Under the pieces are notes generated by a model that saw only the letters and a program-made list of their open reading frames with translations, ran no database searches and was not told the DNA's origin. DNA of 64,000 nt from Actinomycetes bacterium (GTDB lineage: Bacteria > Actinomycetota > Actinomycetes > Mycobacteriales > Mycobacteriaceae): positions 6,893 to 70,892 of the forward strand of contig JAKOYE010000185.1 in the NCBI GenBank assembly GCA_029780675.1, written 5' to 3'. The translations under genes and the position numbers were made by a program. Of the stretch, positions 14,327-37,535 are shown one piece after another (positions within the stretch are counted from its first letter, which is position 1; every line of letters starts with the position of its first letter).

Positions 14327-14350
14327 GTCGCCGCGCTCTACAGTCGGTTC

Positions 14351-25909: not shown

Positions 25910-27166
25910 ATGGCCGTCGTGATCGTGGGAGCCGGACTCAGCGGTCTTGCCGCCGCGCGACACCTCACCAACCACGGGGTCGAGGCGCTGGTGCTGGAAG
26001 GCTCCGATGCGGTGGGCGGACGGGTCCGTACCGACGTCGTCGACGGTTTCCGCCTCGACCGGGGCTTCCAGCTCTACAACCCGGCCTACCCCGAGGGCGC
26101 CCGTGTCCTGGACCATCGTGCCCTGGATCTGAAGCCCTTCGTCGCCGGCGCGCGCATCGTGGTCGACCGGGGCGGACGGCGGCGCGTGGAGCGGGTCGCC
26201 GATCCACGCCGTAAACCATCCTGGGCGGTGCCATCGCTGCGCGCGCATATCGGCTCGCCGTTGTCGACGGCCCGCTTCGGCGCCTACGCCGTCTCCTGCG
26301 CCGTCCGCTCGGTGCCGTCGCTGCATCGGGAGCCCGATGTCACCAGCGAGGAGGCGCTGCGGCGGGCCGGTGCGGATGGCACCCTGATCGAGACCGTGTT
26401 GCGCCCCTTCCTGTCCGGGGTGTTTCTGGACGCCGAGTTGTCGACGTCGCGGCGCTTCCTCGATGTGGTGCTGAAGTCGTTCGTCCGGGGCACTCCGGCC
26501 GTTCCGGCGCTGGGCATGCAGCGCATTCCCGAGCAGCTCGCCGCCGGACTCGACATCCGACTCGGACACCGGGTCGCCGCCGTCTCGGCGCGCGGTGTCG
26601 AGGTGGTCGGCGGTGATGCCCAGCCCGCCGAGGCGGTGATCGTCGCGACCGACCCGACGGCCGCCGCCGACCTCGTCGCCGGTGTCCGGGCGCCCGCGGC
26701 CCGGTCGGTCACCACCTGGTACTACCGCCCGGACTGCGCACCGCAGGAACTCGCCGACGGTGAGGCCGTACTCACCCTCGACGGCGACTGCCGCGGTCCT
26801 CTGGTCAACACCGTCGTCCTCAGCCACGCCGCCCCCGACTACGCGCCGCTGGGCAGCGCGTTGGTTGCGGCCTCGGCCCTGGGGGCCTCCGACAACCCCG
26901 CCCGGGATGACTCGGTGCGCGAGCACCTGGCCTGGCTGTATGGAGTCCCCACGCGGAACTGGGAACTCATCGCCGGCTATCCGATCCCCTACGCCCTGCC
27001 CGCGATGCCGGTGCCGTTCGAATTGCAGCGCCCCGTCCGCACCGAGCAGGGCGTTTACGTCGCCGGTGACCACCGCGACACGTCGTCCATCCAGGGCGCG
27101 CTGGTCAGTGGTCGCCGGGCGGCGCAGGCTGTGCTCAAGGATTTGGGATTCACCGCGGGCCGATAG
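25910..27166 (+). CDS. NAD(P)/FAD-dependent oxidoreductase (amine-oxidase / desaturase-like)
   Basis: Dinucleotide fold VVIVGAGLSGLAAARHL. GGGAGG lies 10 nt upstream of ATG 25910. Confidence 0.85.
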   Translation: MAVVIVGAGLSGLAAARHLTNHGVEALVLEGSDAVGGRVRTDVVDGFRLDRGFQLYNPAYPEGARVLDHRALDLKPFVAGARIVVDRGGRRRVERVADPRRKPSWAVPSLRAHIGSPLSTARFGAYAVSCAVRSVPSLHREPDVTSEEALRRAGADGTLIETVLRPFLSGVFLDAELSTSRRFLDVVLKSFVRGTPAVPALGMQRIPEQLAAGLDIRLGHRVAAVSARGVEVVGGDAQPAEAVIVATDPTAAADLVAGVRAPAARSVTTWYYRPDCAPQELADGEAVLTLDGDCRGPLVNTVVLSHAAPDYAPLGSALVAASALGASDNPARDDSVREHLAWLYGVPTRNWELIAGYPIPYALPAMPVPFELQRPVRTEQGVYVAGDHRDTSSIQGALVSGRRAAQAVLKDLGFTAGR

Positions 27167-27192
27167 CTGGTCGCGGCGCGGGCGGACGTGTG

Positions 27193-27230
27193 GTGGAGCC
27201 CCCTGTCAGGATTGAACTGACGACCTTTCG
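27193..27230. repeat. attL: displaced copy of the tRNA-Thr 3' half
   Basis: gtggagccccctgtcAggattgaacTgacgacctttcg compared with 37460-37497. The two differences (27208, 27218) pair with each other in the T-stem. Confidence 0.85.
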
Positions 27231-27360
27231 GTGCCGGTGAGGCACAAGCATCTGGTTGCTAGCGTTCGGGAATGTTCGCCAGCGCTGGGCATTCACAAGA
27301 TGGAGAATTAGCCGGTGTTCGTATGAGTCCGTGGTGTGTCGTGGCGTGTCGAGGTCGTTT

Positions 27361-27380
27361 GTAGTCGGAAAGTAGTCGGA
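27361..27380. repeat. putative integrase arm-type sites (left arm, 2 copies)
   Basis: GTAGTCGGA occurs at 27361-27369 and 27372-27380. The same core is reiterated 3 times next to attR. Confidence 0.5.
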
Positions 27381-27518
27381 AGGCGGTTGGGTTCGCACCA
27401 CTCGACTACCCTCAGCGCCAGAGCACCCTCGGCCCCATCCTCCCGTGGCCGGGGGCCGCTCCTGACGCGGGGCCGACGGCGAATAGCAGTACCGGGACAT
27501 TGCCATAGCATCGGGTCC

Positions 27519-28178
27519 GTGCCAGACAAGCGGACGTTGTACGTGTTCCTCGATGAATCCGGGGATATGACCTACACCGCAAAGGGCAGCGATCACTTTG
27601 TCTTGTCTGCCGTCTACACCGAGACTCCGTGCCAATCTGCAGCTTCACTGCAGGCCCTGAAGTACGAATTGCTTGCTGCCGGAAGCACAGACCTTGAGTT
27701 CCATGCGACGGAGAACACCAAGGGGACGCGGAAGAGGGTGGCTGAGATGGTGAGCACCCTTTCGAATATCCACGTGCACACACTCTGGATCGACAAGCGC
27801 TTCACGGCACCAAGCCTTCAGGATCCCGTGCGGCTGTTTAGCCTGTTCGGCGGGGCGATGGGTAAGTGGATCGGCACGGTAGTCGCCAAGGATCACGACC
27901 AAGTCGTGATGGTGTTCGATTCCGTCCTCACCGGCAAGGAGCAGGACGCTTTCAAGGCTGCAGTCAAACCAAAGTTGAAGCAACTGCCGGTGCCCTTCCG
28001 GCTGGTGTTCCATCCCGTCAAGTCCGACTTGAATGGGCAGATTGCCGACTATTTCTCATGGGCTTGGTTCCGTCATCTTGAGCGGAGCGATGATGAACCC
28101 AGGAGGTCCCTCGCTGGTATCCCTTGGAGCGAATTTCATCTGTTCCGGGCTGGCCACACGAAGTACTGGAGAAAGTGA
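27519..28178 (+). CDS. DUF3800 domain protein (cargo gene at the att-proximal end)
   Basis: GTG 27519. The N-terminal LYVFLDESGD and C-terminal NGQIADYFSWA are hallmarks of DUF3800 as I recall the family. GC is visibly lower, with many A/T-ending codons. It is the only plus-strand gene in the left half of the element. Confidence 0.7.
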   Translation: MPDKRTLYVFLDESGDMTYTAKGSDHFVLSAVYTETPCQSAASLQALKYELLAAGSTDLEFHATENTKGTRKRVAEMVSTLSNIHVHTLWIDKRFTAPSLQDPVRLFSLFGGAMGKWIGTVVAKDHDQVVMVFDSVLTGKEQDAFKAAVKPKLKQLPVPFRLVFHPVKSDLNGQIADYFSWAWFRHLERSDDEPRRSLAGIPWSEFHLFRAGHTKYWRK

Positions 28179-28469
28179 CCACCCCGCCTACCTTGCGGAA
28201 AGCCCAGGGGCTCTTATCGGCGGGGTGGAACGTTTGACGTCATCGTAGCTCCAGTGAGGCGTCTCCGCAGTTACTTGGCTCACAGGGCGCGCTCACGAGC
28301 GTCTGACCCCCCTTTGCCGAGATTTTCACGGGCTCTGAAAATAAAAAACTCTGACTACCGCGGGTGTCAGGCGCCCCCGCCCCGCCAGGAATATCGGGGG
28401 TAGGGGCCGGCCGCCAGCCTGCCGGTGCGCGCCTCTGACTTCGCGCTTCGGTGTGACTGGCGGCCGGTG

Positions 28470-28528
28470 GGGAGGGACACGACCCCTCCCTTGGACTGTC
28501 CGGCGGGCGGAGGCTGCCGACCGGACAG
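28470..28528 (-). terminator. two stem-loops immediately after the head-gene operon
   Basis: ctgtccgg-N17-ccggacag (28496-28528) and gggaggg-N7-ccctccc (28470-28490). They start 4 nt after the TAA of ORF 28532..29002. No U-tract is present. Confidence 0.4.
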
Positions 28529-28531
28529 GGC

Positions 28532-29002
28532 TTAGTAGAACCAGGTGCCGGTGGTGGCGATGTCGGCGGCGTCGGTGCTGTGGCCGATCTCGGTGAGCGG
28601 GACCGCTGTTTCGTTGGGTACTGCCGCGAGGACGTCGGCCATGCCGGGATCGGCCTGGCACAACTCAACCCAGTGCTTCCGGCGGCTCGCGGCGATCTTG
28701 CCCTTACTGATCGCGTCGTCGATCTGGGCTTCGACCGCGGCTTTCGCTGCGGCTGCGGCGACCCTGCGGCCCTCGGTTGCGTCGTGCCGAAGCGCGGCGA
28801 GGGTGTCGGTGTCGACCACTTCAAGGCCGGCCTTGCGGGCTGCGGCCGCGACCGCGGACGGTTTGGCCGGGTCGACGCCGGCGGCCTGGTCGGCGAGGTC
28901 GGCGACGGTGTCGACGACCAGCTGCGGGTCGGTGGTGTCGGCGGGCAGGCCGAGCAGGTCGAGCAGCGCGGCGGCTTGCTCGTCGGTGAATTGCAGCGTC
29001 AT
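28532..29002 (-). CDS. phage scaffold-like / Mu gpI C-terminal-like protein
   Basis: 156 aa, Ala-rich and helical. The motif DDAISKGKIAASRRKHW resembles repeats seen in Mu-type protease/scaffold proteins. It is the last gene of the head module. Confidence 0.45.
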   Translation of the reverse strand: MTLQFTDEQAAALLDLLGLPADTTDPQLVVDTVADLADQAAGVDPAKPSAVAAAARKAGLEVVDTDTLAALRHDATEGRRVAAAAAKAAVEAQIDDAISKGKIAASRRKHWVELCQADPGMADVLAAVPNETAVPLTEIGHSTDAADIATTGTWFY

Positions 29003-29017
29003 GGTTTCCTTGTCTCC

Positions 29018-29896
29018 TTAGCTGGCGAGGCCGGTCAGCCGGATGGTGTTGTGGGGTTTGTCGACGCCGAACGCGGGTACGACGAACACCTGGAGCAGTT
29101 TCGATTTGGTGCGGGGCTGGTCGGTGACGACGACCTGTAGCGGGGACTCGAATCCGACGATTCCGGTCAGCCCGGATTTCACCAGATAGGCTGTGCCGTC
29201 GGCGATCCGGGCGTTGACGTGCATGGTCAGGCCGCAGGATTCGAGCATCTTCCCGAGGTCGGCGGCGTAGGCCGTGCGCAGCGCGCGGGCCTGGGAGGGG
29301 TGGACCAGCAGCCGGTCGAACACGGCGCCGAGTTGAGCGAGGTCGGCGAGCTCCTGGGCTTGGGCGAAGTGTGCGGTCGGCCGGTCCGCGGACGGGGTGA
29401 GGTCAGCTTCGGGTCCGACGGTGACGAGGGTGTCCCAAGGTTCGTCGACGGCCACGGAGTCGATGCCTGAGGCGTTGACCGCGGCCAGCGCGACGGTGTC
29501 GAGCTTGACGGCGACTTCGTTGGCCAGTTGGGTGGCGGCCTGGTCGAGGCGGCTGACGTTGTTGCGGCTGATTTCCTCGTAGGCGATTTCGACGGCGCCG
29601 CCGTAGTCGGCGACGGTGGCCAGCTTCGTCTCGGGGTCGACGCCCTGCACGAGGGGGTATTCGGTGAGCGGTGCCCGTTTTTCGACTCCGGTGGTGAACA
29701 GGTCGGAGTACTTGAGCAGCGTGTACAACATGCCGCCGCCGTCGATCTTGGCGCCGTGGGGGTGGAAGAAGTGCGGCAGCAGGAGCTGGTCGTCGGCGAG
29801 TGCGGCGATTCGGTCCCGGATGATCGTCGGGGTGTTGAGCGCGACGTCAACGGTCAGTGTGTTGCCGGTGAGCTCGGGAAGCAATGGAGTTGGCAC
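29018..29896 (-). CDS. phage major capsid protein (HK97-fold type)
   Basis: 292 aa. Its position after the decoration and protease-like genes and its general sequence character are typical of actinophage MCPs. No search was run. Confidence 0.65.
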   Translation of the reverse strand: MPTPLLPELTGNTLTVDVALNTPTIIRDRIAALADDQLLLPHFFHPHGAKIDGGGMLYTLLKYSDLFTTGVEKRAPLTEYPLVQGVDPETKLATVADYGGAVEIAYEEISRNNVSRLDQAATQLANEVAVKLDTVALAAVNASGIDSVAVDEPWDTLVTVGPEADLTPSADRPTAHFAQAQELADLAQLGAVFDRLLVHPSQARALRTAYAADLGKMLESCGLTMHVNARIADGTAYLVKSGLTGIVGFESPLQVVVTDQPRTKSKLLQVFVVPAFGVDKPHNTIRLTGLAS

Positions 29897-29928
29897 GGTG
29901 GTGTCCTTTCAGGCGCGGGGATGAATGG

Positions 29929-30312
29929 TTAGGCGTAGCAGGCGATTTCGGCGAGCGCCCCGTCGGAGGCGCCGGTGACGGCGATACCGACGACGACACC
30001 GGCATCAGCGGTGGATGCTGCGCCTCCGGTTCCGACTTGCACGGCCGCGCCGGCGCTGATGGACCCGGCGGCCACGACGCGGATGACCCCGCCGCGGGCG
30101 ATGTGGACCAGCTTGCCGACGGCGGCGGATTCAGCGGCCACGCCCAGGGGGCGATCACCGGCGGCGGCGATCGTGACGGCCAGGTTCCCGCCGGCAGTGC
30201 GGTTCCCGCTCGGCTTGACGAACTTGTGCGCCACGACGGGGGCGGTGGTCACTTCGGCGGTGATGTCTTCGCCGGGCTGGTAGACGCGTGCCGGGATCAG
30301 CGGTCGGGACAT
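29929..30312 (-). CDS. DUF2190 head-decoration / capsid-cement-like protein
   Basis: 127 aa from ATG 30312, preceded by AGGAGA. Its Gly/Ala/Val-rich beta-type sequence (GAAVQVGTGG..., IGIAV) is typical of DUF2190. Confidence 0.6.
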   Translation of the reverse strand: MSRPLIPARVYQPGEDITAEVTTAPVVAHKFVKPSGNRTAGGNLAVTIAAAGDRPLGVAAESAAVGKLVHIARGGVIRVVAAGSISAGAAVQVGTGGAASTADAGVVVGIAVTGASDGALAEIACYA

Positions 30313-30323
30313 GGGTTCTCCTG

Positions 30324-30905
30324 TCATCGGTGGGTTCGTCGGCGCCGGGCGGCGGCGACAGCGACGGCGCGGGGCCGCTGCACAGTCGGATCAGGGGCGG
30401 GGGCGGGGTCGGGCTGGTGGGTGGCCAGGACGATCCGGCGGGGCGACGCGGCGGCGATCCCGTACAGGGCGGCCACGTCGGCGATGTCGGCGAGCCCGTC
30501 TACGCCGGGCATCACCGCCCCGAGTAGCGCGACGGCGGTCAGGACGAAGCCGTAGCGACGGCCGTCGGCGGCCTCGTAGCTGCGCAGCCCTTCGACGGAT
30601 CGCTGCGGCCAGGCCTTGCCGAGCAACGCTGCCACCGGGCGGGGCACGTCCTCGTAGTCGCCGAGCAGCACGTCGCCGCCGTTGGTGGTTCGTAGATTCC
30701 GCACCCTGCCCAGAGCTGGGGCTCCGTCGCCGAGTGGACCTTCGTGGCCGAGCTTGATGACCGCGTCGCGGACGATCCCGGCTCGGGCGGCGGCGACTGC
30801 GTCGGCGAGGTCCTGGCGGGTGACTTCCCATGTGCCGGTGGAGATCTCGTGGACCCCGACCCGGACCAGTTCCACCCCGGGGATGGAGACGACACCGGCG
30901 GGCAT
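30324..30905 (-). CDS. putative prohead protease / scaffold-like protein
   Basis: 193 aa. It is the first gene of the head module, and its stop overlaps the next ORF. The assignment rests on gene order (protease, decoration, capsid) only. Confidence 0.35.
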   Translation of the reverse strand: MPAGVVSIPGVELVRVGVHEISTGTWEVTRQDLADAVAAARAGIVRDAVIKLGHEGPLGDGAPALGRVRNLRTTNGGDVLLGDYEDVPRPVAALLGKAWPQRSVEGLRSYEAADGRRYGFVLTAVALLGAVMPGVDGLADIADVAALYGIAAASPRRIVLATHQPDPAPAPDPTVQRPRAVAVAAARRRRTHR

Positions 30906-30911
30906 CAGTGC

Positions 30912-31346
30912 TCACCCGCTGGGGCGGGGTCGTGCTGGTCGCTGTTCTGCGTAGGCGACAACGGCTGCCGCGTCATATAGCCACCGGCCGGCGGGACGGC
31001 GAGCTGGTAGGCGCCCCCGCTGCGCAAGCTGGCGGACAGCGCTCGGTGAGGTGCCGAGGATGCGGGCGGCCGCGGCGGTGGTGACTGTCGCATGGGGGCC
31101 AGCGTCGACCGGATCGGGTGGCCCGGCTGCACAGGTGGCCGTGGTGCTGTCGGTTCTGCTGACGTTTCGCGCCGCTTCGACAGCTGCGGCTGTCGTTTTG
31201 GTGAATGTGGCGATCGCGGCGAGCAGCTTGGGGGTGGGTTGGCGGCTGGTCCGCGCCAGCAGGTCCGGCAGCATGCCGAGGGCGCTGGCGAGGTAGGCGG
31301 CGTCGGAGGCGTCGAGCTGGACCGTTCCAGTCGGCACCAGTTTCAC
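30912..31346 (-). CDS. HTH (excisionase/MerR-like) DNA-binding protein, possible packaging-specificity factor
   Basis: C-terminal HTH AARILGTSPSAVRQLAQRGRLPARR. It lies directly upstream of the head genes, in the slot usually held by a small terminase. Confidence 0.4.
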   Translation of the reverse strand: MKLVPTGTVQLDASDAAYLASALGMLPDLLARTSRQPTPKLLAAIATFTKTTAAAVEAARNVSRTDSTTATCAAGPPDPVDAGPHATVTTAAAARILGTSPSAVRQLAQRGRLPARRPAGRWLYDAAAVVAYAEQRPARPRPSG

Positions 31347-31627
31347 GCCGCCCCGCCTTCAGCTCTCATCAGCAGGGCTGGGATGCGCCCGCGCAGGGTG
31401 TCGGCCAGCCGCATGGCCTGTTCGTCGCTCATCGCCGCCCACAGGACCCCCAACGTGGCGGCGAACACCTCGGCGGCATCGCGGTGGGTATCGACTTCGC
31501 CGAACACGGACAGCAGGGCCTCACCGCCGTGCTGTCGCTGCCCGAGACCGTGGACGGCGAGCTGGTGGGCGCGCAGCAGCAGCTGGTCGGCGGCGCGGGC
31601 CTCGTCGTGCTCGTCGGCGTTCACCAC
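31343..31627 (-). CDS. hypothetical phage protein (94 aa)
   Basis: Overlaps its neighbours by 4 and 7 nt. Coding-like GC3 bias. Confidence 0.45.
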   Translation of the reverse strand: MVNADEHDEARAADQLLLRAHQLAVHGLGQRQHGGEALLSVFGEVDTHRDAAEVFAATLGVLWAAMSDEQAMRLADTLRGRIPALLMRAEGGAA

Positions 31628-31929
31628 GCACCCCTGACAGTCAGTCCGGGGTGCGCTGCCTCAAGTGCGGACAGCTCGCCGACCAGGTCGGCCAGCACCG
31701 TTTCCCGGGTGAGGGCCACGTTCGCGACTATCGGGAGCCGGTCGACGATTTCGTTGGTGGCCTCGCGTACAGCGGCGAAGGCCCGCACTCGGGCTCCGGT
31801 CCGGCCCGCCAGCTGCATCAGGGCTTCGTCGTAGCCAGTCTGGTCGCCGCGGACAGCTGCCACCGCCAGTGACAGCGCCAGCCACCGCGCGAACACGTCG
31901 CCGTCCCGTTCCAGTCTCATCACGCTCAT
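31621..31929 (-). CDS. hypothetical phage protein (102 aa)
   Basis: ATG 31929 (MSVMRLERDG...) overlaps the upstream stop by 4 nt. The track ORF extension to 32166 is Arg-rich shadow sequence. Confidence 0.45.
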   Translation of the reverse strand: MSVMRLERDGDVFARWLALSLAVAAVRGDQTGYDEALMQLAGRTGARVRAFAAVREATNEIVDRLPIVANVALTRETVLADLVGELSALEAAHPGLTVRGAW

Positions 31930-32147
31930 TCCGCGGCCCCTGGATCCGCTGGCGGCCAGGCCGCTGTTGGCCGGTCGCGGCGGTCGGCCCGCAGTGCCTC
32001 GACAGCGTCCACCAGATCGTCGGCCAGCCGCATTGCTTCGGCCTCGGTTGCGGTGAACCTCCACGGCCCGATCCGGATCATCACGCGCGGATTGTGGTAT
32101 TTCGGCACCACGTCGGCATCTAGTTCGCTCTGTGCGTTCAGGCGCAC
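31926..32147 (-). CDS. hypothetical phage protein (73 aa)
   Basis: Overlaps the stop of the DUF3987 gene by 10 nt. Confidence 0.4.
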   Translation of the reverse strand: MRLNAQSELDADVVPKYHNPRVMIRIGPWRFTATEAEAMRLADDLVDAVEALRADRRDRPTAAWPPADPGAAE

Positions 32148-33772
32148 GATTCGTCCTCCTGGTCATGTTTGCTATCGGGCTGTTCCGGTTCGGTTGTTTC
32201 GGTGTCGGTGGCTATGCGCCACAGCGAGTTGCGGCCGGTGTTGGTCGAGTCGAATCGCGGTGTGGTCGACTTGAGCCTTGCGGCCTTGATCGCGTCCCGG
32301 GTGTAGCCCTCGGCGGTGCCGGCTGCGTAGATCTGGCTAACCGGGCACCAGCCGTTCGCGTCGCCGTGCTCGGCGAGGTAGGCGGCGAGGAATGCGGCGG
32401 CCGTCCGGGTCGGGCGCGGCGACGCTGAGTCACTTGACCTGCGCGATTGCAGATCGGTGACCGTCGCGGATAGTTCAGGGCTGAACTCAGGGTTCAGCCC
32501 CTTTGAACTGCTGATTCGGGGGCTGAACTGTGGTTCAGGGCTGAACTCTGGGTGTAACTCGAACTGCAGTCCGCCTTGCGGCGCTTCACTCCGTAGGATC
32601 GCACCCTCGCTGGCTAACTCCGCGGTGGCGGCTTCGAGGAGCTCGCGGTATTCGCGTTTACCCAACCGCGCCCGGAGGTCGCCGCGGGCGGTGCGCCCTT
32701 CGGAGAGCACCTTGAGGATGCGGCGGCGGACGGTGTCCAGTCTGCGCCGGTCGATGGTCTCGTCGAATTCGGCGCGGCTGAGTGCCCGTGCTCTCGTCTT
32801 TGCTCGTTCTGCCTGCCTGGCATGTTCGACTATCCAGCCGCGGGTGCGGTCGGAGACGGCCATGACGACTGCGGATAGCTCCCAGTCAGTGTCGGAGACA
32901 ACGGAGCGTTGGTGCATGACGGCCAGCAGTGCGGCCACTTTCAGGCGTGTCAGCGTGGCGTGGCCATCGAGGGCGTCAGCCTCCCCACGCTGCCGGGCAA
33001 GGTGGGCGTCGATGACAGTTCGTGCGATCTCCTCGGGGCCGTAGCCGATTTCGATGACGCCATCGGCTGCGGCCCGCCAGGTCGGTATCGACGTTGACAG
33101 CGGCTGCGGGTCATGCACGGGTTCGCCGGGCATGTCCGGGTCAGTCGTCGGGAACCATAGGAACCGTTGCGGGGTTCCGCCGGTGGTGTCGGCGAAGATC
33201 ACTCCGCAGTGTCCGGGCTGGGCGCCCACGGACAGGCAGCACCGGTAGGAGTGCGCGTCCACGACACGACTGGTTGCCTTTTGAGCGTTGGACTGTCCGA
33301 GCTGCTCGCCCATCGCCATCGACTTGAGTTGCGCCAGCAGGATTGAGCCTTGCCGGGACGCCAGGCCGGCCAGGGTGTCGACCTCGGGGACCATGAAGAT
33401 CGCAGCGGTCAGCGGTTCGTGGTCGGCGTCGGCGTTGTCGGGCTTCTTGAACGCCGCAGCGATCCCTTCCCCCGAGCCTATGGGCAGTTCGGGGATCGGG
33501 GTGGGCCACGCCAGGCGGGCAACCTTGTCGGATATCCCTTTGCCCCCGCCGGATGGCGACACGAACGCACACAACAAGTTCAGCGAGGCGCGGCCCCCGA
33601 TGAGGCCGGGCAGCTGAACGTTGGGGCCGACACTTGCAGCGACCCGCAACAGCACCGCGCCGAACACGGCCCAGGGTGCGGCGTACCGGGCGCGGGCCCA
33701 GTGGTGGATTCGGCGGAGCTGTTCGGAGTCCGATTCCAGGAAGAACTTGTTCGTCAAATCAGCGTCGATCAT
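32138..33772 (-). CDS. DUF3987-type replication protein (P-loop helicase-like) with C-terminal winged-helix region
   Basis: ATG 33772 (MIDADLTNKFF...). P-loop VSPSGGGKGIS in the GGRASLNLLCAF context typical of DUF3987 phage/plasmid replication proteins. Confidence 0.65.
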   Translation of the reverse strand: MIDADLTNKFFLESDSEQLRRIHHWARARYAAPWAVFGAVLLRVAASVGPNVQLPGLIGGRASLNLLCAFVSPSGGGKGISDKVARLAWPTPIPELPIGSGEGIAAAFKKPDNADADHEPLTAAIFMVPEVDTLAGLASRQGSILLAQLKSMAMGEQLGQSNAQKATSRVVDAHSYRCCLSVGAQPGHCGVIFADTTGGTPQRFLWFPTTDPDMPGEPVHDPQPLSTSIPTWRAAADGVIEIGYGPEEIARTVIDAHLARQRGEADALDGHATLTRLKVAALLAVMHQRSVVSDTDWELSAVVMAVSDRTRGWIVEHARQAERAKTRARALSRAEFDETIDRRRLDTVRRRILKVLSEGRTARGDLRARLGKREYRELLEAATAELASEGAILRSEAPQGGLQFELHPEFSPEPQFSPRISSSKGLNPEFSPELSATVTDLQSRRSSDSASPRPTRTAAAFLAAYLAEHGDANGWCPVSQIYAAGTAEGYTRDAIKAARLKSTTPRFDSTNTGRNSLWRIATDTETTEPEQPDSKHDQEDESCA

Positions 33773-34086
33773 GCGGGCCGTCTCCTTGCAATGTAGGCGC
33801 CAGAACGGACAGCGTCGGCGCGGCGTTGGACTCGTCTTGATACAGCCGGCCAATCTGCCGATGCGGCAACGCCTTTCGACGCCTCGGCAGCGGTTTCCTG
33901 TGCTGTCTCCATCCGGAGCACGTGGTGCTCACCGGCGACGGCGAGCGCGATCACCTTGAGCGGGTCGCTGTCGGCCAGGGCCATCCACGCCGGGGTGCCG
34001 GCGGTCGGCGGGGTCCCGGCCTGGGCTATCAGCGCGGTGACGAACTCGTGGACTGGCCACCAGGAGACCTGCCTGGAGTCACTCAC
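33769..34086 (-). CDS. hypothetical prophage protein (DUF2742-like)
   Basis: 105 aa. 4-nt overlap with the downstream gene and 8-nt overlap with the upstream gene. Confidence 0.45.
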   Translation of the reverse strand: MSDSRQVSWWPVHEFVTALIAQAGTPPTAGTPAWMALADSDPLKVIALAVAGEHHVLRMETAQETAAEASKGVAASADWPAVSRRVQRRADAVRSGAYIARRRPA

Positions 34087-34957
34087 CGTTCACCCTCAGG
34101 TCGGGCTTGCGGAAGGTGTTCACCATGGCCGCGATCCGGCTCTGCTGGACTTCCGTGTAGATCGCGGTGGTCGCGGGGCTGGTGTGGCCGAGGAACTCCT
34201 GGACTACCCGCACGTCCTCGACCTCGATGCCAGCGGACCCGGCCCAGTGGCGCAGCGTGTGCAGGGTGGAACGGGTGCCGCTCTTGTGGAGCCAGTCGTT
34301 GGCCAACTGGGAAACCTGGTGCGGTGTCACCGGCCCGGTCCCGCGCTCCCTGCGGAAGCACAACCCATCCTCGGCGAGTGCCGGTCGGATCAGGTCCCAC
34401 GCCCATCCAGGCAGCGCGGTGATGCGCTCCCATTCTCCTTTGGTGTGGGTCAGCCGGATGAACATGCCGCCCCCTGGCGCGGGCTCGAAACACGCCATCT
34501 CGAGGTGCGCGATTTCCTTCGCACGCAGACCCGCATAGGCGGCCAGAATCAGCCACGCCTGGATCCGCGGGGACGGGGCGGTGCGGATCGCCCGCTCGAG
34601 CGCGTCGAACGCAATCGGACGCGGCAGACCTCGCTTCGCCCGCGGGGTGACCAGCAGCGCTGCCGGATTATCGGGCCGCAGTCCACGCTTGTGGAGGAAC
34701 ACGTAGTACGGGCGCACCATCGACGTCCTGAACCTCAACCGCTCGATCCGGATCGTGTCCTGCCACGCTTCCAACTCGTCCTGCGTTGCGTCGAACGGAT
34801 CGCGGCCGAGGTGCTCGTATAGGTACTGCATTTCCATGCGCCGCAACTTGACCGTTCTGGGTGCGCGCCCGGCTCTGAGCATCCACCGGCAGTGGTCGTC
34901 CAGGTAGGACACGTCAGATCCATAGTGCATCCCGGGGATCAGCCGACGGGCGCTCAT
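34079..34957 (-). CDS. second tyrosine recombinase (XerC/XerD-like)
   Basis: Catalytic signature LRAKE (R), HTLRHWAGS (HxxR), LGHTSPATTAIYTEV (H..Y). Confidence 0.85.
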   Translation of the reverse strand: MSARRLIPGMHYGSDVSYLDDHCRWMLRAGRAPRTVKLRRMEMQYLYEHLGRDPFDATQDELEAWQDTIRIERLRFRTSMVRPYYVFLHKRGLRPDNPAALLVTPRAKRGLPRPIAFDALERAIRTAPSPRIQAWLILAAYAGLRAKEIAHLEMACFEPAPGGGMFIRLTHTKGEWERITALPGWAWDLIRPALAEDGLCFRRERGTGPVTPHQVSQLANDWLHKSGTRSTLHTLRHWAGSAGIEVEDVRVVQEFLGHTSPATTAIYTEVQQSRIAAMVNTFRKPDLRVNGE

Positions 34958-35409
34958 CGGTCCGACCCGTCACTGATGCGGGCGGCCGCCCGGTCGATGA
35001 GGCGCTGGGCTGCCATCATGTGCGCGCGTGCGCCCACCAGGTCGACGACCGCCAGGAGCGGGGCCTCGCCGGGCACCGAGTTGATAGCGTCGCTCAGGTC
35101 GGCGACGGCCATCCGGGCGCCCTGGCCGGCGTCAACCAGCAGCCCGGGCACGTTGTGCGACACGCAACCCGGGGCGTGGCCGCCGAGACCACCGCAACAG
35201 GCCTTGGTGCTGGAATCGACCGAACCGCCGTCGTAGTAGCGGCAGAACTGGCACACGTCGGCGCCGTTCTCGGTGGGGACAGTGCAATACCGGCACTCAC
35301 GGGATACGCTCGTCACGACTGAAACTCCTTCTTCGTGGTTGGTGTCGAGGTCTTGGCCCTCGGCGGTGTTGGAGCACCTGCCGGGGGCGTTTTTCGTTGC
35401 TGAATTCAT
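34954..35409 (-). CDS. Cys-rich hypothetical protein (zinc-ribbon-like)
   Basis: Contains CRYCTVPTENGADVCQFCRYY and CCGGLGGHAPGC. Its start shares 1 nt with the Xis stop. Confidence 0.5.
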   Translation of the reverse strand: MNSATKNAPGRCSNTAEGQDLDTNHEEGVSVVTSVSRECRYCTVPTENGADVCQFCRYYDGGSVDSSTKACCGGLGGHAPGCVSHNVPGLLVDAGQGARMAVADLSDAINSVPGEAPLLAVVDLVGARAHMMAAQRLIDRAAARISDGSDR

Positions 35410-35576
35410 CAGGCGGCGCCTTCAAGCCGGCGGATGTACTCCGTGATTTGGCGGTCAGTGCTGAACCGACGCTTGCCGACCTTCACGCTGGCTAGTTCGC
35501 CGGATTTCCAGAGTTGGAACACCATCGTGCGGCTGATACCGCCGAGCTTCGCGCCGGTTGTCTTCCAGTCGTTCAT
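35409..35576 (-). CDS. excisionase / AlpA-like HTH protein (55 aa)
   Basis: Hand-translated as MNDWKTTGAKLGGISRTMVFQLWKSGELASVKVGKRRFSTDRQITEYIRRLEGAA. GAGGAG RBS. It is below the track cutoff. Confidence 0.65.
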   Translation of the reverse strand: MNDWKTTGAKLGGISRTMVFQLWKSGELASVKVGKRRFSTDRQITEYIRRLEGAA

Positions 35577-35680
35577 GCCGGACTCCTCTCGATGTGGGTG
35601 TGCTACGCAAAATTAATAAGACAGTCGTAGATCTACCACGAACGTGCCCGATACGCAACAGACGGTTATGATGCGTAGTT
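35577..35680. promoter_or_regulatory. divergent immunity/switch region between xis and the repressor
   Basis: Contains a perfect 10-bp palindrome GTAGATCTAC (35627-35636). TACGCA(A) half-sites lie at 35604, 35652 and, inverted, 35672. There is an AT-rich tract AAAATTAATAAG. Confidence 0.5.
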
Positions 35681-36235
35681 GTGACGACAGACTGGCGAGG
35701 GTGGTCCGACGCCCTCACGGCGCGTGTGGCCGGGGCTGTAAGAACGCGACGGGCTGCGTTGGGGCTGACTGCGGCCGAACTCTCCGATAGGACCGTCGTC
35801 GGCAAGCCGCTGACACGGGCTGTGATTTCAGACTTAGAAACAGGCCGAAAGAAGTCGCTGGAGATTGTTGAACTTCTGACTCTCGCTGCAGCACTTGATA
35901 TTCCGCCGGTCTTGCTTCTGTTCCCGGGATACCCAGATGGTGAGATCGAGGTACTTCCAGGGAGGATGCTTGATTCCGAGGACGCGGCTCTATGGATGGC
36001 GGGGGAAATCGGGCTGCCGGAAGAAGACGACGGCGGGAGCCGCGGCGTTGAGCTTGTCCGAGCAGTAGGCGAACTGCGGCACCGGCGTCTAGAGGAGCGT
36101 CTAGAGGTATTGCGCCAAGCAGAGGCTGGAGACGCCGAGACGGCGAAGGTGCTCAAGCTGCACGAGAGAGAGATTTTCTACCTACAGCAACGCATCGAAG
36201 GCGCTCGCGCCGATCTCTGGGGCGGGGATGCCTAG
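35681..36235 (+). CDS. XRE-family HTH repressor
   Basis: GTG start. HTH LGLTAAELSDRTVVGKPLTRAVISDLETGRKK. Divergent from xis. Confidence 0.75.
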   Translation: MTTDWRGWSDALTARVAGAVRTRRAALGLTAAELSDRTVVGKPLTRAVISDLETGRKKSLEIVELLTLAAALDIPPVLLLFPGYPDGEIEVLPGRMLDSEDAALWMAGEIGLPEEDDGGSRGVELVRAVGELRHRRLEERLEVLRQAEAGDAETAKVLKLHEREIFYLQQRIEGARADLWGGDA

Positions 36236-37388
36236 GCAGCGGATGGCACCGGGGGAGCACGGCCGGGTGACCGTGTCGAAGCTGGGCCGGGATCTGTTCG
36301 AGGCCCGAACCTACGTCCGTGACGGTGATGGGGTACGACGCAAGGTTCGCCGCACCGGACGATCCGATGAGGATGCCCGCCGGGAACTGCAACGGCACCT
36401 TGCTGGCCGGCGCACGCCGCTGACGGGGCAGGCCGTCACCGAGCGGACAACGCTCTCCGAGCTGTTCGAGGCGTGGATCGACAGGAAGGTTGCCGAGGAC
36501 AAGCTGATGCCGCAGTCGGAGGCCCAGTACCGCACGGTGTGGCGGGTCCACGGAGCCGACAAGCTCGGCGCGCTACGCATCCGGGAATTGCCCACCAGCC
36601 GCGCCGACGCCCACCTGAAGGGAATCGCCTCGGTGCGCCAGGCGCAACTGCTGCGCATCGTCCTGAAGGGCATGTTCACGTTGGCGGTCCGCTTCGACGT
36701 GATCGGGGTGAATCCGATCGCCGAGGCCCGACCGAATCGCGGCGAGAAACGTCCGGTCCGGGCCGCTACGCCCGCCGAGTTCCAGCGGGTCCGCAGGGCG
36801 GTCGCCGACTATGCGGGCACGGTGGTGCGGGGGCCGGCCAGGGGGCGTTACCTACCGGCGTTCGTTGAGCTGGCGATGGCCACCGGCGCCCGACCCGGCG
36901 AGGTGCTCGCGATCCGCTGGGAGGATGTCGACCTGCTCGCCGATCCGCCCACGGTGACCATCTCGGGGACCGTCATCGACCACCAGGGCGTCCCCGGCCT
37001 GCCTGCGCACCGGCAGGACACCCGCAAGCACGGTGCGCCGCCCCTGGTGACGTTCCTGCCCGTGCACGGTGTCGACGCGCTGACGAACCTGTTCGGTGTC
37101 ACCGGACCGACTGGTCTGGTGTTCAAGTCCCGCACCGGTGGTCCGATGTCGGCGAACAACCTGCGCCGGTCGCTGCGCGAGGCCCTTCCCGATGACCTGC
37201 GGTGGTGTACGCCGCACTCGTTCCGGCGGACAGCGGGCACCGTGGTCCGGGACGCCCACGGCGTCGAGGCGGCTCAGCAGCAGCTGGGCCACGCCCACCT
37301 GGCGACCACCGAGGGGCACTACGTGGAGCGGAAAACCACAGGTCCGGACGCCCGCAGCGCGCTTGATGCGTTCATGGATGGAAAGTAG
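36228..37388 (+). CDS. int: tyrosine integrase
   Basis: ATGARPGEVLAIRW (R), HSFRRTAGT (HxxR), LGHAHLATTEGHYVE (H..Y). It ends 72 nt from the tRNA 3' end. Confidence 0.9.
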   Translation: MPRQRMAPGEHGRVTVSKLGRDLFEARTYVRDGDGVRRKVRRTGRSDEDARRELQRHLAGRRTPLTGQAVTERTTLSELFEAWIDRKVAEDKLMPQSEAQYRTVWRVHGADKLGALRIRELPTSRADAHLKGIASVRQAQLLRIVLKGMFTLAVRFDVIGVNPIAEARPNRGEKRPVRAATPAEFQRVRRAVADYAGTVVRGPARGRYLPAFVELAMATGARPGEVLAIRWEDVDLLADPPTVTISGTVIDHQGVPGLPAHRQDTRKHGAPPLVTFLPVHGVDALTNLFGVTGPTGLVFKSRTGGPMSANNLRRSLREALPDDLRWCTPHSFRRTAGTVVRDAHGVEAAQQQLGHAHLATTEGHYVERKTTGPDARSALDAFMDGK

Positions 37389-37415
37389 TCGCCGAAAGTA
37401 GTCGGAAAGTAGTCG
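37381..37415. repeat. putative integrase arm-type sites (right arm, 3 copies)
   Basis: GAAAGTAGTCG occurs at 37381, 37394 and 37405, in direct orientation. The array overlaps the int stop codon. Confidence 0.5.
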
Positions 37416-37459
37416 ATTCCGGGGGTGTCCCGGTATCGGGTGCAGCGTTTCTGCTGGCT

Positions 37460-37497
37460 GTGGAGCCCCCTGTCGGGATTGAACCGACGACCTTTCG
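37460..37497. repeat. attR core (inside the functional tRNA-Thr)
   Basis: 38-nt match to 27193-27230. It covers the tRNA from the 3' strand of the anticodon stem to the CCA end. Confidence 0.85.
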
Positions 37498-37535
37498 CTT
37501 ACAAGGCGAGTGCTCTACCACTGAGCTAAGGAGGC
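37461..37535 (-). tRNA. tRNA-Thr (anticodon UGU), CCA encoded
   Basis: Folded by hand: GCCTCCT acceptor, GCTC/GAGC D-stem, CTTGTAA anticodon loop, GTCGG-TTCAATC-CCGAC T-arm, AGGGGGC-T-CCA. Confidence 0.9.

What the first reader, a model, noticed from the sequence alone, without database searches (positions are those of the whole stretch)
27193..37497. 10.3-kb tRNA-Thr island with head genes only: phiRv2-like cryptic prophage or capsid-remodelling satellite
The element has complete integration and immunity functions (int, xis, XRE repressor, att repeats), a DUF3987 replication protein and a compact head module (protease-like, DUF2190 decoration, major capsid, scaffold-like). None of its 16 ORFs looks like a large terminase, portal, head-tail connector or tail protein, and the only ORFs over 300 aa are DUF3987 and Int. 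It therefore cannot build a virion alone. The gene set and size recall the phiRv1/phiRv2 elements of M. tuberculosis, whose biology is still unclear. The layout is also what a helper-dependent satellite that supplies or redirects capsid assembly would look like.
Basis: partly seen in the sequence, partly recalled or inferred. Interest (0 to 1): 0.65.

Follow-up and report, generated by a model that had tools for sequence, protein, structure and literature searches.

The report
Capsid-carrying phage satellite at tRNA-Thr
This 10.3-kb island in an uncultured wastewater mycobacterium is an intact member of a widespread family of small mobile elements that carry their own phage-head shell genes but no portal, terminase or tail, so it most likely spreads by borrowing those parts from a helper phage; the kind has been proposed from genome surveys before, but nobody has yet shown such an element being mobilised.

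Summary
A 10,305-bp island lies between 38-nt direct repeats (27193-27230 and 37460-37497). The right repeat is the 3' end of tRNA-Thr(TGT). The island has 16 intact genes: XRE repressor and Int on one strand, then a roughly 7-kb operon on the other strand (Xis-like HTH, second tyrosine recombinase, DUF2742, primase/helicase-like protein, small ORFs, head cassette), plus a DUF3800 cargo gene. No portal, large terminase, connector, tail or lysis gene is present, and no space is left for one. It does not look like a decayed prophage. The same five-gene cassette (wHTH protein, prohead protease domain, cement protein, major capsid protein, detached scaffold domain) recurs in the roughly 35 complete relatives examined, across about ten Mycobacteriales genera. 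In 23 relatives with clear att repeats the element measures 9.1-12.6 kb (median about 10.5). The capsid gene is under purifying selection (dN/dS about 0.2). Metagenomes show the same tRNA site both filled and empty. The best reading is a PICI-like, shell-supplying, helper-dependent satellite. Such "candidate Mycobacterium PICIs" were already described computationally in 2023, so this is a new member of a known, experimentally unproven kind. The DUF3987 label was not confirmed, and homology to phiRv2 could not be tested.

The parts
27193..27230 (.). attL core. This is the displaced original 3' end of tRNA-Thr and carries the A..T variant of the T-stem pair.
   Evidence: It is a 38-nt direct repeat of 37460-37497. 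The two differences are a compensatory T-stem pair, and ARAGORN accepts a tRNA built with either version. A unitig in run X19 joins this core version directly to the tRNA body, which is the empty site.
27361..27389 (+). Arm-type repeats (GAAAGTAGTCG) on the attL-side arm; candidate Int arm-binding sites.
   Evidence: The window holds four perfect copies, all within 170 bp of the att cores; chance expectation is 0.29 matches, counting those with one mismatch.
27336..28178 (+). DUF3800 cargo gene in a lower-GC segment; candidate anti-phage defence gene. The real start is probably internal, giving about 211 aa.
   Evidence: Pfam PF12686, E 9e-8. PADLOC DUF3800_VII, E 4.8e-6. GC 0.60-0.62 here against about 0.69 nearby. 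It is called as 211 aa in the public contigs.
28532..29002 (-). Detached scaffold domain (156 aa).
   Evidence: It matches only the C-terminal parts of phage protease-scaffold fusions: phrog_2976 positions 235-375 of 394 and phrog_3894 positions 333-436 of 458. It is 33% identical to residues 279-417 of 32HC gp11. It follows the capsid gene in essentially all relatives.
29018..29896 (-). Major capsid protein (292 aa).
   Evidence: PF25209, E 4.5e-13; phrog_1650, E 8e-43, full length. About 34% identical to capsid proteins of complete phages. dN/dS is 0.18-0.21 against relatives 81-85% identical.
29929..30327 (-). Cement/decoration-like protein (PF09956, formerly DUF2190).
   Evidence: Pfam E 3e-7; phrog_673 E 2e-19. 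49% identical to 32HC gp12, the gene between protease and capsid in that phage.
30324..30905 (-). Stand-alone prohead protease domain (193 aa).
   Evidence: phrog_3894 positions 6-156 of 458, E 1e-51. 41% identical to the N-terminal domain of Gordonia phage Francois gp8. H54, D83, S103 and E105 are invariant in 26 homologues. The AF2 model matches N-terminal domains of phage 'prohead scaffold and peptidase' proteins in BFVD (E down to 3e-13). The 120 best homologues are 127-252 aa, mostly 185-217 aa, and none approaches the 445-493 aa of the phage fusion proteins.
30912..31346 (-). Satellite-specific 144-aa protein: N-terminal helical hairpin, flexible linker and C-terminal winged HTH. Candidate packaging-specificity or late-regulator protein.
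   Evidence: PF12728, E 3e-11; the TerS PHROG hit covers the HTH only. tblastn finds no match in 50,697 phage genomes. The AF2 model and Foldseek point to the BldC/RacA/MerR/Xis class and not to TerS. It lies directly upstream of the protease gene in nearly all relatives.
31343..32147 (-). Three small ORFs (94, 102 and 73 aa) of unknown function.
   Evidence: No significant family hits. The 73-aa ORF is conserved in many relatives. Gene calls as in the public contigs.
32138..33772 (-). Replication protein (544 aa), similar to the C-terminal part of phage primase/polymerase-helicase proteins.
   Evidence: phrog_28894 E 2e-54 and phrog_11515 E 8e-49. No Pfam or PDB sequence hit. dN/dS 0.15.
33769..34086 (-). 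DUF2742 protein, linked to the replication gene.
   Evidence: PF10888, E 3e-37. It also lies next to the replication gene in the Gordonia element L018 and in L061/L062.
34079..34957 (-). Second, XerC/D-sized tyrosine recombinase (292 aa) inside the early operon.
   Evidence: PF00589, E 2e-14; phrog_1, E 2.5e-24. R..HxxR..H..Y residues are visible in the translation.
34954..35576 (-). A 151-aa Cys-rich ORF and a 55-aa Xis/AlpA-like HTH, which is the first gene of the leftward operon.
   Evidence: The 55-aa protein gives only a weak HTH_17 hit (E 0.023), but it is 43-53% identical to the gene at the same position in relatives, and that gene is annotated HTH_17 in several relatives looked up.
35681..36235 (+). 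XRE-family repressor, co-oriented with int and overlapping it; no S24 peptidase domain detected.
   Evidence: PF01381, E 1e-5; phrog_3 'transcriptional repressor'.
36228..37388 (+). Tyrosine integrase (386 aa).
   Evidence: PF00589, E 3e-13; phrog_1, E 4e-48.
37374..37415 (+). Three tandem arm-type repeats (GAAAGTAGTCG) on the attR-side arm.
37460..37497 (.). attR core. This is the element-supplied 3' end of the reconstituted tRNA-Thr (tRNA 37461-37535, minus strand).

Best explanation
The island is an integrated, intact phage satellite of the PICI type that supplies its own capsid shell and depends on a helper phage for everything else.

Shown here:
- It sits in the 3' end of tRNA-Thr between att repeats, with arm-type Int sites on both arms.
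- It encodes a repressor and Int on one strand. On the other strand a single roughly 7-kb run of adjacent or overlapping genes goes from a Xis-like HTH through replication genes to a five-gene head cassette, and ends in two GC-rich hairpins.
- It lacks portal, large terminase, connectors, tail and lysis genes.
- The cassette and a genome size of about 10.5 kb are conserved across Mycobacteriales.
- The tRNA site is found both occupied and empty in nature.

Inferred life cycle:
1. The XRE repressor keeps the leftward operon off. It has no autocleavage domain, so derepression probably needs a helper-phage protein rather than RecA.
2. On helper infection or induction, Int and the Xis-like protein excise the element, and DUF2742 with the primase/helicase-like protein replicate it.
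3. The capsid protein, the detached scaffold and the protease build small procapsids around the helper's portal, and the cement protein stabilises them. Capsid size would explain the 9-12.6 kb genome-size band.
4. The helper's large terminase packages satellite DNA. Specificity may come from the satellite-only 144-aa winged-HTH protein at the head of the cassette.
5. Helper connectors, tails and lysis functions complete and release the particles.

The DUF3800 gene is cargo, possibly an anti-phage defence expressed from the integrated element.
For: Element boundaries and recombination system.

Gene content. There is no room for, and no homologue of, portal or TerL.

Family conservation:
- The cassette wHTH, protease domain, cement, capsid, scaffold domain keeps the same order and gene sizes in the complete loci examined: 27 of the 31 GTDB species-representative hits, 7 metagenome or isolate loci and 2 close relatives.
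- The genera are Mycobacterium, Mycolicibacterium, Mycobacteroides, Gordonia, Williamsia, Rhodococcus, Prescottella, Tsukamurella, Dietzia and Corynebacterium.
- None of these loci has a 32HC-type TerL or portal within 10 kb on either side.

The arrangement differs from that of the two phages examined. There the scaffold-like C-terminal region is fused to the protease and lies upstream of the capsid gene. In the islands the two domains are separate genes flanking cement and capsid. The 120 best protease homologues are short: 127-252 aa, mostly 185-217 aa. The wHTH gene has no tblastn match in 50,697 phage genomes.

Size: att-to-att length is 9.1-12.6 kb (median about 10.5) in 23 members, despite different integrases, att sites and cargo.

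Selection: dN/dS is 0.18-0.21 for the capsid gene and 0.15 for the replication gene.

Mobility, from contig depths of flanks versus island: equal in X1-X3; about 23 versus 11 in X5; about 30 versus 12 in X19, with a contig joining the left flank to the core and tRNA; and about 430 versus 5 in X18.

Expression: metatranscriptome contigs concentrate on the stretch from the small ORFs to the scaffold gene.

Literature: integrase-plus-capsid islands at tRNAs in Mycobacterium were proposed as PICIs (PMC10654092, PMC10085698). An 11-kb satellite with small capsids has been isolated from a Mycolicibacterium (PMC12822802).
Against: - No helper phage is identified.
- No excised circle (attP junction) or over-replication is seen. 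Only assembled contigs were available, and these drop rare forms.
- No bona fide small terminase is found. The wHTH protein resembles Xis, BldC and MerR rather than TerS, and its HTH is C-terminal.
- The protease domain has no solved structural relative, so activity rests on conserved His/Ser residues and on phage annotations.
- A shell built by the satellite around a foreign portal has no experimentally characterised precedent that I know of.
- The presence/absence polymorphism could reflect strain differences rather than ongoing excision, and the empty-site haplotype differs from the occupied one in the 33 bp next to attL.
- The RNA evidence comes from contigs. One run carries a 98.8% variant whose other modules may simply be too divergent to lay.
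Confidence: 0.68

Rival explanations
1. It is a cryptic, decaying prophage remnant. A full temperate phage lost its packaging, tail and lysis genes, and the remaining genes are on their way to pseudogenisation.
For: The head genes are homologous to those of complete phages. Decayed copies of the family exist: frameshifts or IS insertions in L017, L026, L031 and L046, and fragments in L047-L049. No excised form was seen.
Against: The same compact 16-gene-scale architecture and a size of about 10.5 kb recur in dozens of species with different integrases and att sites. Independent random decay would not produce that. The split protease/scaffold layout and the wHTH gene are absent from the phages examined. 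All 16 genes are intact, and dN/dS is well below 1. No sequenced phage has a capsid protein more than about 40% identical, whereas family members from different genera share 48-60%.
Confidence: 0.07
2. It is primarily an anti-phage defence island. The capsid, scaffold and protease proteins act as decoys that poison assembly of an infecting phage, and the DUF3800 cargo adds a second defence. The element itself moves rarely, if at all, in particles.
For: Satellites are known to interfere with helper assembly. The DUF3800 gene matches a PADLOC defence-candidate model. Relatives carry PIN, methyltransferase, and DUF4747 with HNH at the same cargo position. The head operon appears to be transcribed in bulk communities.
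Against: Interference alone does not explain the narrow genome-size band. It also does not explain the replication module, or a complete shell-building set that includes a cement protein. This reading is largely compatible with the satellite reading rather than exclusive of it.
Confidence: 0.12
3. It is an actinomycete integrative element that moves by another route (AICE-like or mobilisable), and the capsid genes have a non-viral role such as forming a protein compartment.
For: The Int, Xis and replication-protein module resembles the core of actinomycete integrative elements. HK97-fold shells without portals exist as encapsulins (from general knowledge, not tested here).
Against: No FtsK/Tra-like translocase, relaxase or Nudix/Spd gene is present. 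The capsid, protease, scaffold and cement genes are typical phage head-maturation sets, with closest relatives in phages. Encapsulin operons lack prohead proteases and integrases (from general knowledge).
Confidence: 0.04

Closest known systems
Candidate Mycobacterium PICIs (Hatfull laboratory, mSystems 2023, PMC10654092; also detected by SatelliteFinder, de Sousa et al., NAR 2023, PMC10085698)
   Same: [quoted passage not shown] Some carry replication, scaffold or terminase genes and variable cargo. The M. abscessus relatives fetched here (L015, L016) have the same five-gene cassette.
   Different: Those papers define the class only as integrase plus capsid and report no mobilisation experiment. 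This member comes from an uncultured wastewater mycobacterium. It uses tRNA-Thr, carries a second tyrosine recombinase and has DUF3800 cargo instead of an ESX-secreted toxin system. The cassette anatomy (detached scaffold, stand-alone protease, satellite-only wHTH gene) and the size band were worked out here.
phiRv1 / phiRv2 of M. tuberculosis
   Same: They are of similar size (9.3 and 10.8 kb; phiRv2 sits at tRNA-Val). The described order of functions is the same: integrase, excisionase, primase, a small 'terminase', prohead protease, capsid. No portal, tail or lysis genes are described, and particle formation has never been shown (PMC12268328, PMC3986857).
   Different: Homology was not tested, because phiRv2 could not be retrieved. 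From my own recollection, not checked here, the phiRv head genes belong to the HK97 gp4/gp5 Pfam families with a P27-type small terminase. The genes here are PF25209 capsid, a Mu-I/phrog_3894-type protease and scaffold, and a wHTH protein. phiRv1 uses a serine integrase.
Capsid-forming PICIs (cf-PICIs)
   Same: They are integrated satellites that encode their own capsid protein and protease, make small capsids and take only some parts from the helper.
   Different: cf-PICIs are defined by also carrying TerL, portal and head-tail adaptor/connector genes (PMC10085698). None of these is present here.
Classical PICIs with capsid-morphogenesis genes (E. coli-type PICIs; SaPIbov5 Ccm, a capsid-protein homologue)
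   Same: The layout is the same: repressor and int divergent from xis/alpA, then replication, then packaging and morphogenesis genes. A satellite-encoded capsid-protein homologue that redirects capsid size has a precedent (from general knowledge).
   Different: Here the element carries a full shell-building set (capsid protein, protease, scaffold, cement) rather than one remodelling protein. No recognisable TerS, Ppi or Rpp-type factor is present.
Actinobacterial satellites isolated as particles: EPIPs of Mycolicibacterium aichiense (PMC12822802) and MiniFlayer/MulchRoom of Streptomyces (PMC10690885)
   Same: EPIPs have roughly 11-kb genomes, smaller capsids than their helper, and satellite-encoded capsid and scaffold genes in an actinobacterial host.
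   Different: EPIPs carry a serine integrase, TerS, adaptor, stopper and a tape-measure gene. The Streptomyces satellites are described as lacking key replication genes (PMC10690885). Neither gene set matches the one here.

Membership tests
PICI (SatelliteFinder model, PMC10085698) | Integrase at one end of the element | tested here: met
   Int at 36228-37388: PF00589 and phrog_1, E 4e-48. It lies next to attR/tRNA-Thr.
PICI (SatelliteFinder model, PMC10085698) | Regulator module (Stl-like repressor and/or AlpA-type HTH) | tested here: met
   An XRE repressor is divergent from a 55-aa HTH_17-like gene. That gene gives only a weak hit by itself (E 0.023), but it is conserved at this position in relatives.
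PICI (SatelliteFinder model, PMC10085698) | Primase-replicase | tested here: met
   The 544-aa protein matches PHROG 'DNA polymerase/primase' families, E 2e-54. Only the C-terminal part of those profiles is matched, and there is no Pfam hit.
PICI (SatelliteFinder model, PMC10085698) | Small terminase (TerS) | tested here: inconclusive
   The 144-aa wHTH protein hits the TerS family phrog_57 only over its HTH. Its fold resembles BldC, RacA, MerR and Xis rather than TerS. It has no tblastn match in the phage collection.
PICI (SatelliteFinder model, PMC10085698) | Capsid-morphogenesis gene(s) | tested here: met
   Capsid protein, protease domain, cement protein and scaffold domain.
PICI (SatelliteFinder model, PMC10085698) | Absence of the forbidden components (tail, holin, portal, head-tail connectors) | tested here: met
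   No such hits among the 16 genes. tblastn with phage portal, TerL and adaptor proteins is negative over the whole window.
PICI (functional definition) | Induction by, and packaging into particles of, a helper phage | not testable with these tools
   Only Logan contigs were available. No attP junction or excess depth was seen.
cf-PICI | Own large terminase, portal, and head-tail adaptor/connector | tested here: not met
   All are absent from the island. TerL and portal were also sought in every family locus examined and not found.
Candidate Mycobacterium PICI (PMC10654092) | [quoted passage not shown] | tested here: met
   A 10.3-kb element with Int and a PF25209 capsid protein. M. abscessus members share the cassette.
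phiRv2-like element | Sequence homology of the head and replication genes to phiRv2 (Rv2646-Rv2659c) | not tested
   A scan of genome contigs with the published phiRv2 att repeat returned no M. tuberculosis locus, so no phiRv2 sequence was in hand.
phiRv2-like element | A roughly 10-kb element at a tRNA with int, xis, primase, protease and capsid, and no tail or portal | tested here: met
   The layout determined agrees with the published description (PMC12268328, PMC3986857).
Intact temperate prophage | Complete packaging, head, tail and lysis modules | tested here: not met
   No TerL, portal, tail or lysis genes are present, and the element is 10.3 kb.
EPIP satellites (PMC12822802) | Serine integrase, TerS, head-to-tail adaptor and stopper, tape-measure protein | tested here: not met
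   The integrase is a tyrosine recombinase, and there are no adaptor, stopper or tape-measure hits.

The most novel reading that the evidence does not exclude
The family would be a distinct class of satellite, spread across the order Mycobacteriales, that sits midway between classical PICIs and cf-PICIs. It would bring a complete shell kit (capsid protein, stand-alone protease, detached scaffold, cement protein). It would assemble that shell on a helper phage's portal into a small capsid sized for about 10.5 kb. It would use a satellite-only winged-HTH protein, unrelated to known small terminases, to direct the helper's terminase to its own DNA. phiRv1 and phiRv2 of M. tuberculosis would then be analogous solutions built from a different head-gene lineage.
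Probability: 0.45. Interest if true: 0.65.

Novelty: new member of a known kind. Interest (0 to 1): 0.42.

Why it matters
Small integrase-plus-capsid islands are common in mycobacteria, including M. abscessus and, as phiRv1 and phiRv2, M. tuberculosis. Their biology has been unclear since 1999, and no helper-dependent mobilisation of an integrated one had been reported in the papers read here.

This member is in an uncultured host, so it is not the one to experiment on. The comparative picture built around it gives concrete handles:
- a fixed five-gene cassette;
- a gene found only in the satellites, which is the obvious candidate for packaging specificity;
- a genome-size band that predicts a small capsid;
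- close relatives in tractable hosts (M. smegmatis, M. abscessus, Gordonia).

If these elements are mobilised, they are vehicles for defence genes and toxins among mycobacteria, and they could affect the outcome of therapeutic phage infections.

Tried and rejected
- A single-sequence scan of species-representative genomes with the capsid protein found nothing. A profile from 24 homologues was needed.
- Metagenome contigs of about 10-11 kb were checked for circularity. None had terminal overlaps. They are integrated copies with short flanks, so they are not evidence for free circles.
- I looked for empty-site and circle junctions in Logan contigs of 14 DNA runs. Depth ratios and one flank-to-core-to-tRNA path support empty sites, but no attP back-joint appeared. 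Two read-laying runs failed for technical reasons.
- DUF3987 was rejected for the replication protein: no Pfam hit even at E <= 5 and no PDB sequence relative.
- The TerS reading of the wHTH protein could not be upheld from sequence or fold.
- The protease-domain model has no PDB match. Only the viral predicted-structure library gave matches.
- My first statement that 32HC gp11 is the unsplit counterpart of the protease and scaffold genes was wrong for the N-terminal half. The 32HC N-terminal domain, read by eye from its sequence, is ClpP-like, and BLAST finds no similarity to the island's protease domain. Only the C-terminal scaffold part is homologous. The right comparison for the protease domain is phrog_3894 / Gordonia phage Francois gp8.
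- An attempt to fetch phiRv2 through its published att repeat hit 26 unrelated loci and no M. tuberculosis record.
- Rfam found nothing in the island except the tRNA. The sigma-70 and terminator consensus scans were at background level.

Full report
**Observation**

The window is high-GC DNA (about 0.68). Its housekeeping protein OtsA is at most 88% identical to that of any species-representative genome, and the best matches are uncultured Mycobacterium or Mycolicibacterium MAGs. Near-identical sequence occurs in activated-sludge, wastewater, digester, soil and marine metagenomes.

The reported island is real and sits where stated. A 38-nt direct repeat lies at 27193-27230 and 37460-37497 (36 of 38 identical). 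The right copy is the 3' end of tRNA-Thr(TGT), 37461-37535, minus strand. The two mismatches are the two sides of one T-stem base pair: G-C in the copy attached to the tRNA and A-T in the far copy. ARAGORN accepts a tRNA-Thr built with either version. An 11-nt motif, GAAAGTAGTCG, has four perfect copies in the window. All lie within 170 bp of the two cores and in one orientation, against 0.29 matches expected by chance. That is the pattern of arm-type sites for a tyrosine integrase.

**Gene content**

GC3-guided gene calling, Pfam and PHROGs give 16 genes.

- On the plus strand at the right end: an XRE-family repressor (35681-36235) overlapping the start of a tyrosine integrase (36228-37388).
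- Divergent from them, a run of minus-strand genes with overlapping or nearly abutting ends:
  - a 55-aa Xis/AlpA-like HTH
  - a 151-aa Cys-rich ORF
  - a second, XerC/D-sized tyrosine recombinase
  - DUF2742
  - a 544-aa protein matching the C-terminal part of phage primase/polymerase families (E 2e-54)
  - three small ORFs
  - the head cassette: a 144-aa HTH_17 protein, a 193-aa protease-like protein, a PF09956 cement protein, a 292-aa PF25209 major capsid protein and a 156-aa scaffold-like protein
- Two GC-rich hairpins follow the scaffold gene.
- A DUF3800 gene on the other strand, in lower-GC DNA, fills the left end. It matches a PADLOC defence-candidate model.

Only 71-353 bp stretches are unassigned, so a portal or large terminase cannot be hiding. 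tblastn with the packaging, portal and adaptor proteins of two related phages finds nothing anywhere in the window.

**What the head genes are**

The capsid protein is full length and about 34% identical to capsid proteins of complete temperate phages: M. abscessus prophages, mycobacteriophage 32HC and Gordonia phages.

In those phages the gene order is portal, protease-scaffold fusion (445-493 aa), a small gp12-like protein, then capsid. The island's genes relate to them as follows:

- The 193-aa protein matches only the N-terminal 150-160 residues of the phrog_3894 / Gordonia phage Francois gp8 type of protease (E 1e-51; 41% identity).
- The 156-aa protein matches only the C-terminal scaffold part of such fusions.
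- The cement protein is 49% identical to 32HC gp12.

So the module is mosaic, and its protease and scaffold domains are separate genes on either side of cement and capsid.

The protease domain keeps invariant His54, Asp83, Ser103 and Glu105 across 26 homologues, together with a conserved basic C-terminal tail. Its AF2 model is confident over residues 1-128. It has no PDB relative but matches the N-terminal domains of many phage 'prohead scaffold and peptidase' or 'prohead serine protease' models.

The 144-aa protein is predicted as a helical hairpin, a disordered linker and a C-terminal winged HTH of the BldC/RacA/MerR/Xis kind. tblastn finds no match for it in 50,697 phage genomes.

**The family**

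- The capsid protein has 140 homologues at E <= 1e-5. Many sit on contigs of about 10-12 kb.
- Contexts were read for nine of them, for 31 loci from species-representative genomes and for ten IMG/VR proviral contigs.
- In every complete locus from the first two sets the cassette recurs: wHTH (about 130-145 aa), protease domain (about 185-208 aa), cement (about 125-130 aa), capsid (288-295 aa) and scaffold domain (156-160 aa). It comes with an integrase, and often with XRE, the Xis-like gene and DUF2742.
- No locus has a 32HC-type TerL or portal within 10 kb on either side.
- The hosts are Mycobacterium, Mycolicibacterium, Mycobacteroides abscessus, Gordonia, Williamsia, Rhodococcus, Prescottella, Tsukamurella, Dietzia and Corynebacterium. 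In the last two genera, cement follows capsid instead of preceding it.
- Integrases, att sites and cargo all differ between members. Sites include tRNA-Pro, -Val, -Tyr, -Thr and others, and also the 3' ends of protein genes. Cargo includes DUF3800, PIN, a methyltransferase, DUF4747 with HNH, and large M. abscessus proteins.
- Even so, att-to-att length is 9.1-12.6 kb in 23 members (median about 10.5), and 18 of them fall between 9.9 and 11.6 kb.
- Some copies are decayed: M. kansasii 732 has IS insertions and a broken int, and others have frameshifts or survive only as fragments. The window's copy is intact.
- Against relatives 81-85% identical in the capsid protein, dN/dS is 0.18-0.21 for capsid, 0.15 for the replication gene and 0.23-0.66 for the rest.

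**Mobility in nature**

Only assembled contigs of public runs could be laid on the locus.

| Run(s) | Flank depth | Island depth |
|---|---|---|
| X1, X2, X3 | equal to island | equal to flanks |
| X5 | about 23 | about 11 |
| X19 | about 30 | about 12 |
| X18 | 424-445 | 4.5-7 |

In X1 and X2 a single contig runs through attL.

In X19 a left-flank contig identical to the window splits at 27159 into two paths. One path (depth 13.5) matches the window. The other (depth 19.2) runs into the core. A unitig joins the attL-type core directly to the tRNA body.

So the same tRNA-Thr site exists empty in nearly identical genomes. The attL version of the core is the original bacterial 3' end, as expected if the element supplies the replacement 3' end.

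No circle junction was seen, but contigs cannot show rare forms. The empty-site haplotype also differs from the window in the 33 bp just left of the core (27160-27192), which I cannot explain beyond strain variation.

Metatranscriptome assemblies contain the element, with contigs concentrated on 28.4-32.1 kb, from the small ORFs through the scaffold gene. I treat this as tentative evidence that the head operon is transcribed in situ. One of those runs carries a 98.8% variant whose other modules may simply be too divergent to lay.

**Interpretation**

The conserved compact architecture, the arrangement not seen in the phages examined, the gene found only in the satellites, the size band, purifying selection and the insertion polymorphism together argue against a randomly decayed prophage. 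They argue for a self-maintaining mobile element that needs a phage for portal, terminase, connectors, tail and lysis. I take it to be a PICI-like satellite that supplies its own shell.

Shown here: boundaries and recombination sites, gene content, the absence of the missing functions, family conservation, selection and presence/absence.

Inferred:
- derepression by a helper protein, because the XRE protein has no detectable autocleavage domain;
- excision by Int with the Xis-like protein;
- replication by DUF2742 and the primase/helicase-like protein;
- assembly of a small (T=3 or T=4) shell on the helper's portal;
- packaging by the helper's terminase, possibly directed by the 144-aa wHTH protein.

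The role of the wHTH protein is the weakest step. By fold it could equally be a late-operon regulator or a recombination directionality factor.

**Comparison with what is known**

- SatelliteFinder reported PICI-type elements in mycobacterial genomes. These include phiRv1 and phiRv2 and genetically distinct ones in M. abscessus (PMC10085698).
- A Hatfull-laboratory survey defined 'candidate PICIs' as integrase-plus-capsid regions. It showed tRNA-integrated examples with replication, scaffold and terminase genes, and stated that induction by phages had not been demonstrated (PMC10654092).
- Fan et al. listed many prophage-like elements of 9-12 kb in Mycobacterium (PMC3986857).
- The first isolated Mycobacteriaceae satellites, the EPIPs, are also about 11 kb with small capsids, but they have a different gene set (PMC12822802).

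The element fails the cf-PICI definition because it has no TerL, portal or connectors. It meets the PICI model except for a recognisable TerS. It resembles phiRv2 in layout and size, but homology could not be tested. I therefore file it as a new member of a known, computationally proposed kind. The cassette anatomy, its spread beyond Mycobacterium and the size statistics are refinements, not a new category.

**Verdict**

This is a real, intact and probably active element of moderate interest.

Noticed in passing
window 34079-34957 (-): The island carries a second, XerC/D-sized tyrosine recombinase (292 aa) with the R..HxxR..H..Y residues visible, embedded in the early operon between the Cys-rich ORF and DUF2742. 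Weakly similar recombinases (26-28% identical) turned up in three related loci (L016, L030, L032); in L016 and probably L032 the hit lies at the position of the element's own integrase. It may resolve multimers of the replicating circle, or act as an alternative integrase.
   Followed up: partly
window 27160-27192: In runs X18 and X19 the haplotype with the empty tRNA site joins 27159 to the att core at 27193 without these 33 bp. The tool does not report whether other letters lie between. Simple site-specific integration does not predict a difference outside the core. It may be strain variation, or a trace of an earlier event.
   Followed up: partly
window 27208/27218 versus 37475/37485: The only two differences between attL and attR are the two partners of one T-stem base pair (A-T versus G-C), so both versions give a valid tRNA-Thr. 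The version supplied by the element is the one now in the functional tRNA.
   Followed up: yes
window 41296-51966 (+): A single 3,556-codon ORF lies in DNA with GC up to 0.80 and strong GC skew. It encodes glycine-rich PGRS-type repeats (Pfam PGRS hit) and ends in an NHL/YNCE-like beta-propeller. The first 700 residues contain no recognised domain, including no PE domain.
   Followed up: partly
window 30324-30370 (C-terminus of the protease-domain protein): A nearly invariant basic tail, AVAVAAARRRR(T/N)HR, ends the stand-alone protease proteins across the family. It follows a poorly conserved linker with low model confidence. It could be a capsid-targeting or DNA/RNA-binding tail.
   Followed up: no
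window 28420-32128: Metatranscriptome contigs (runs X25-X27 and X30) cover mostly this stretch, from the small ORFs to the scaffold gene. They rarely cover the integrase, repressor and replication genes, which hints that the head operon is transcribed in bulk communities.
   Followed up: partly
L038 8937-9536 (Gordonia MAG): In this family member the usual protease-domain gene is replaced by one matching residues 18-224 of 32HC gp11, the N-terminal region I read as ClpP-like. The rest of the cassette is kept, so proteases have been swapped as modules within the satellite family.
   Followed up: no
L043, L044, L045 (Dietzia, Corynebacterium): In these more distant members (capsid protein 36-38% identical) the cement gene follows the capsid gene instead of preceding it.
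   Followed up: no
L017 (M. kansasii 732): This is a decayed copy of the family at tRNA-Val. The integrase is split, the scaffold gene is frameshifted, and IS elements are inserted, stretching the element to 14.7 kb.
   Followed up: partly
L063-L088: The 21-nt repeat published as the phiRv2 att sequence (CCGCGCAATAAACGCGCAATA) occurs in 26 stretches of DNA, mostly from environmental mycobacterial and other actinobacterial MAGs. It does not occur in any M. tuberculosis record of the collection. The motif may be a more general repeat, or the M. tuberculosis genome may not be held.
   Followed up: no
L015, L016 (M. abscessus), about 12600-15400: The cargo position of the M. abscessus family members holds a 104-aa gene, a 634/651-aa gene and a 141-aa gene with no Pfam hits. 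This is the position where ESX-secreted toxin systems were reported for M. abscessus candidate PICIs (PMC10654092).
   Followed up: no
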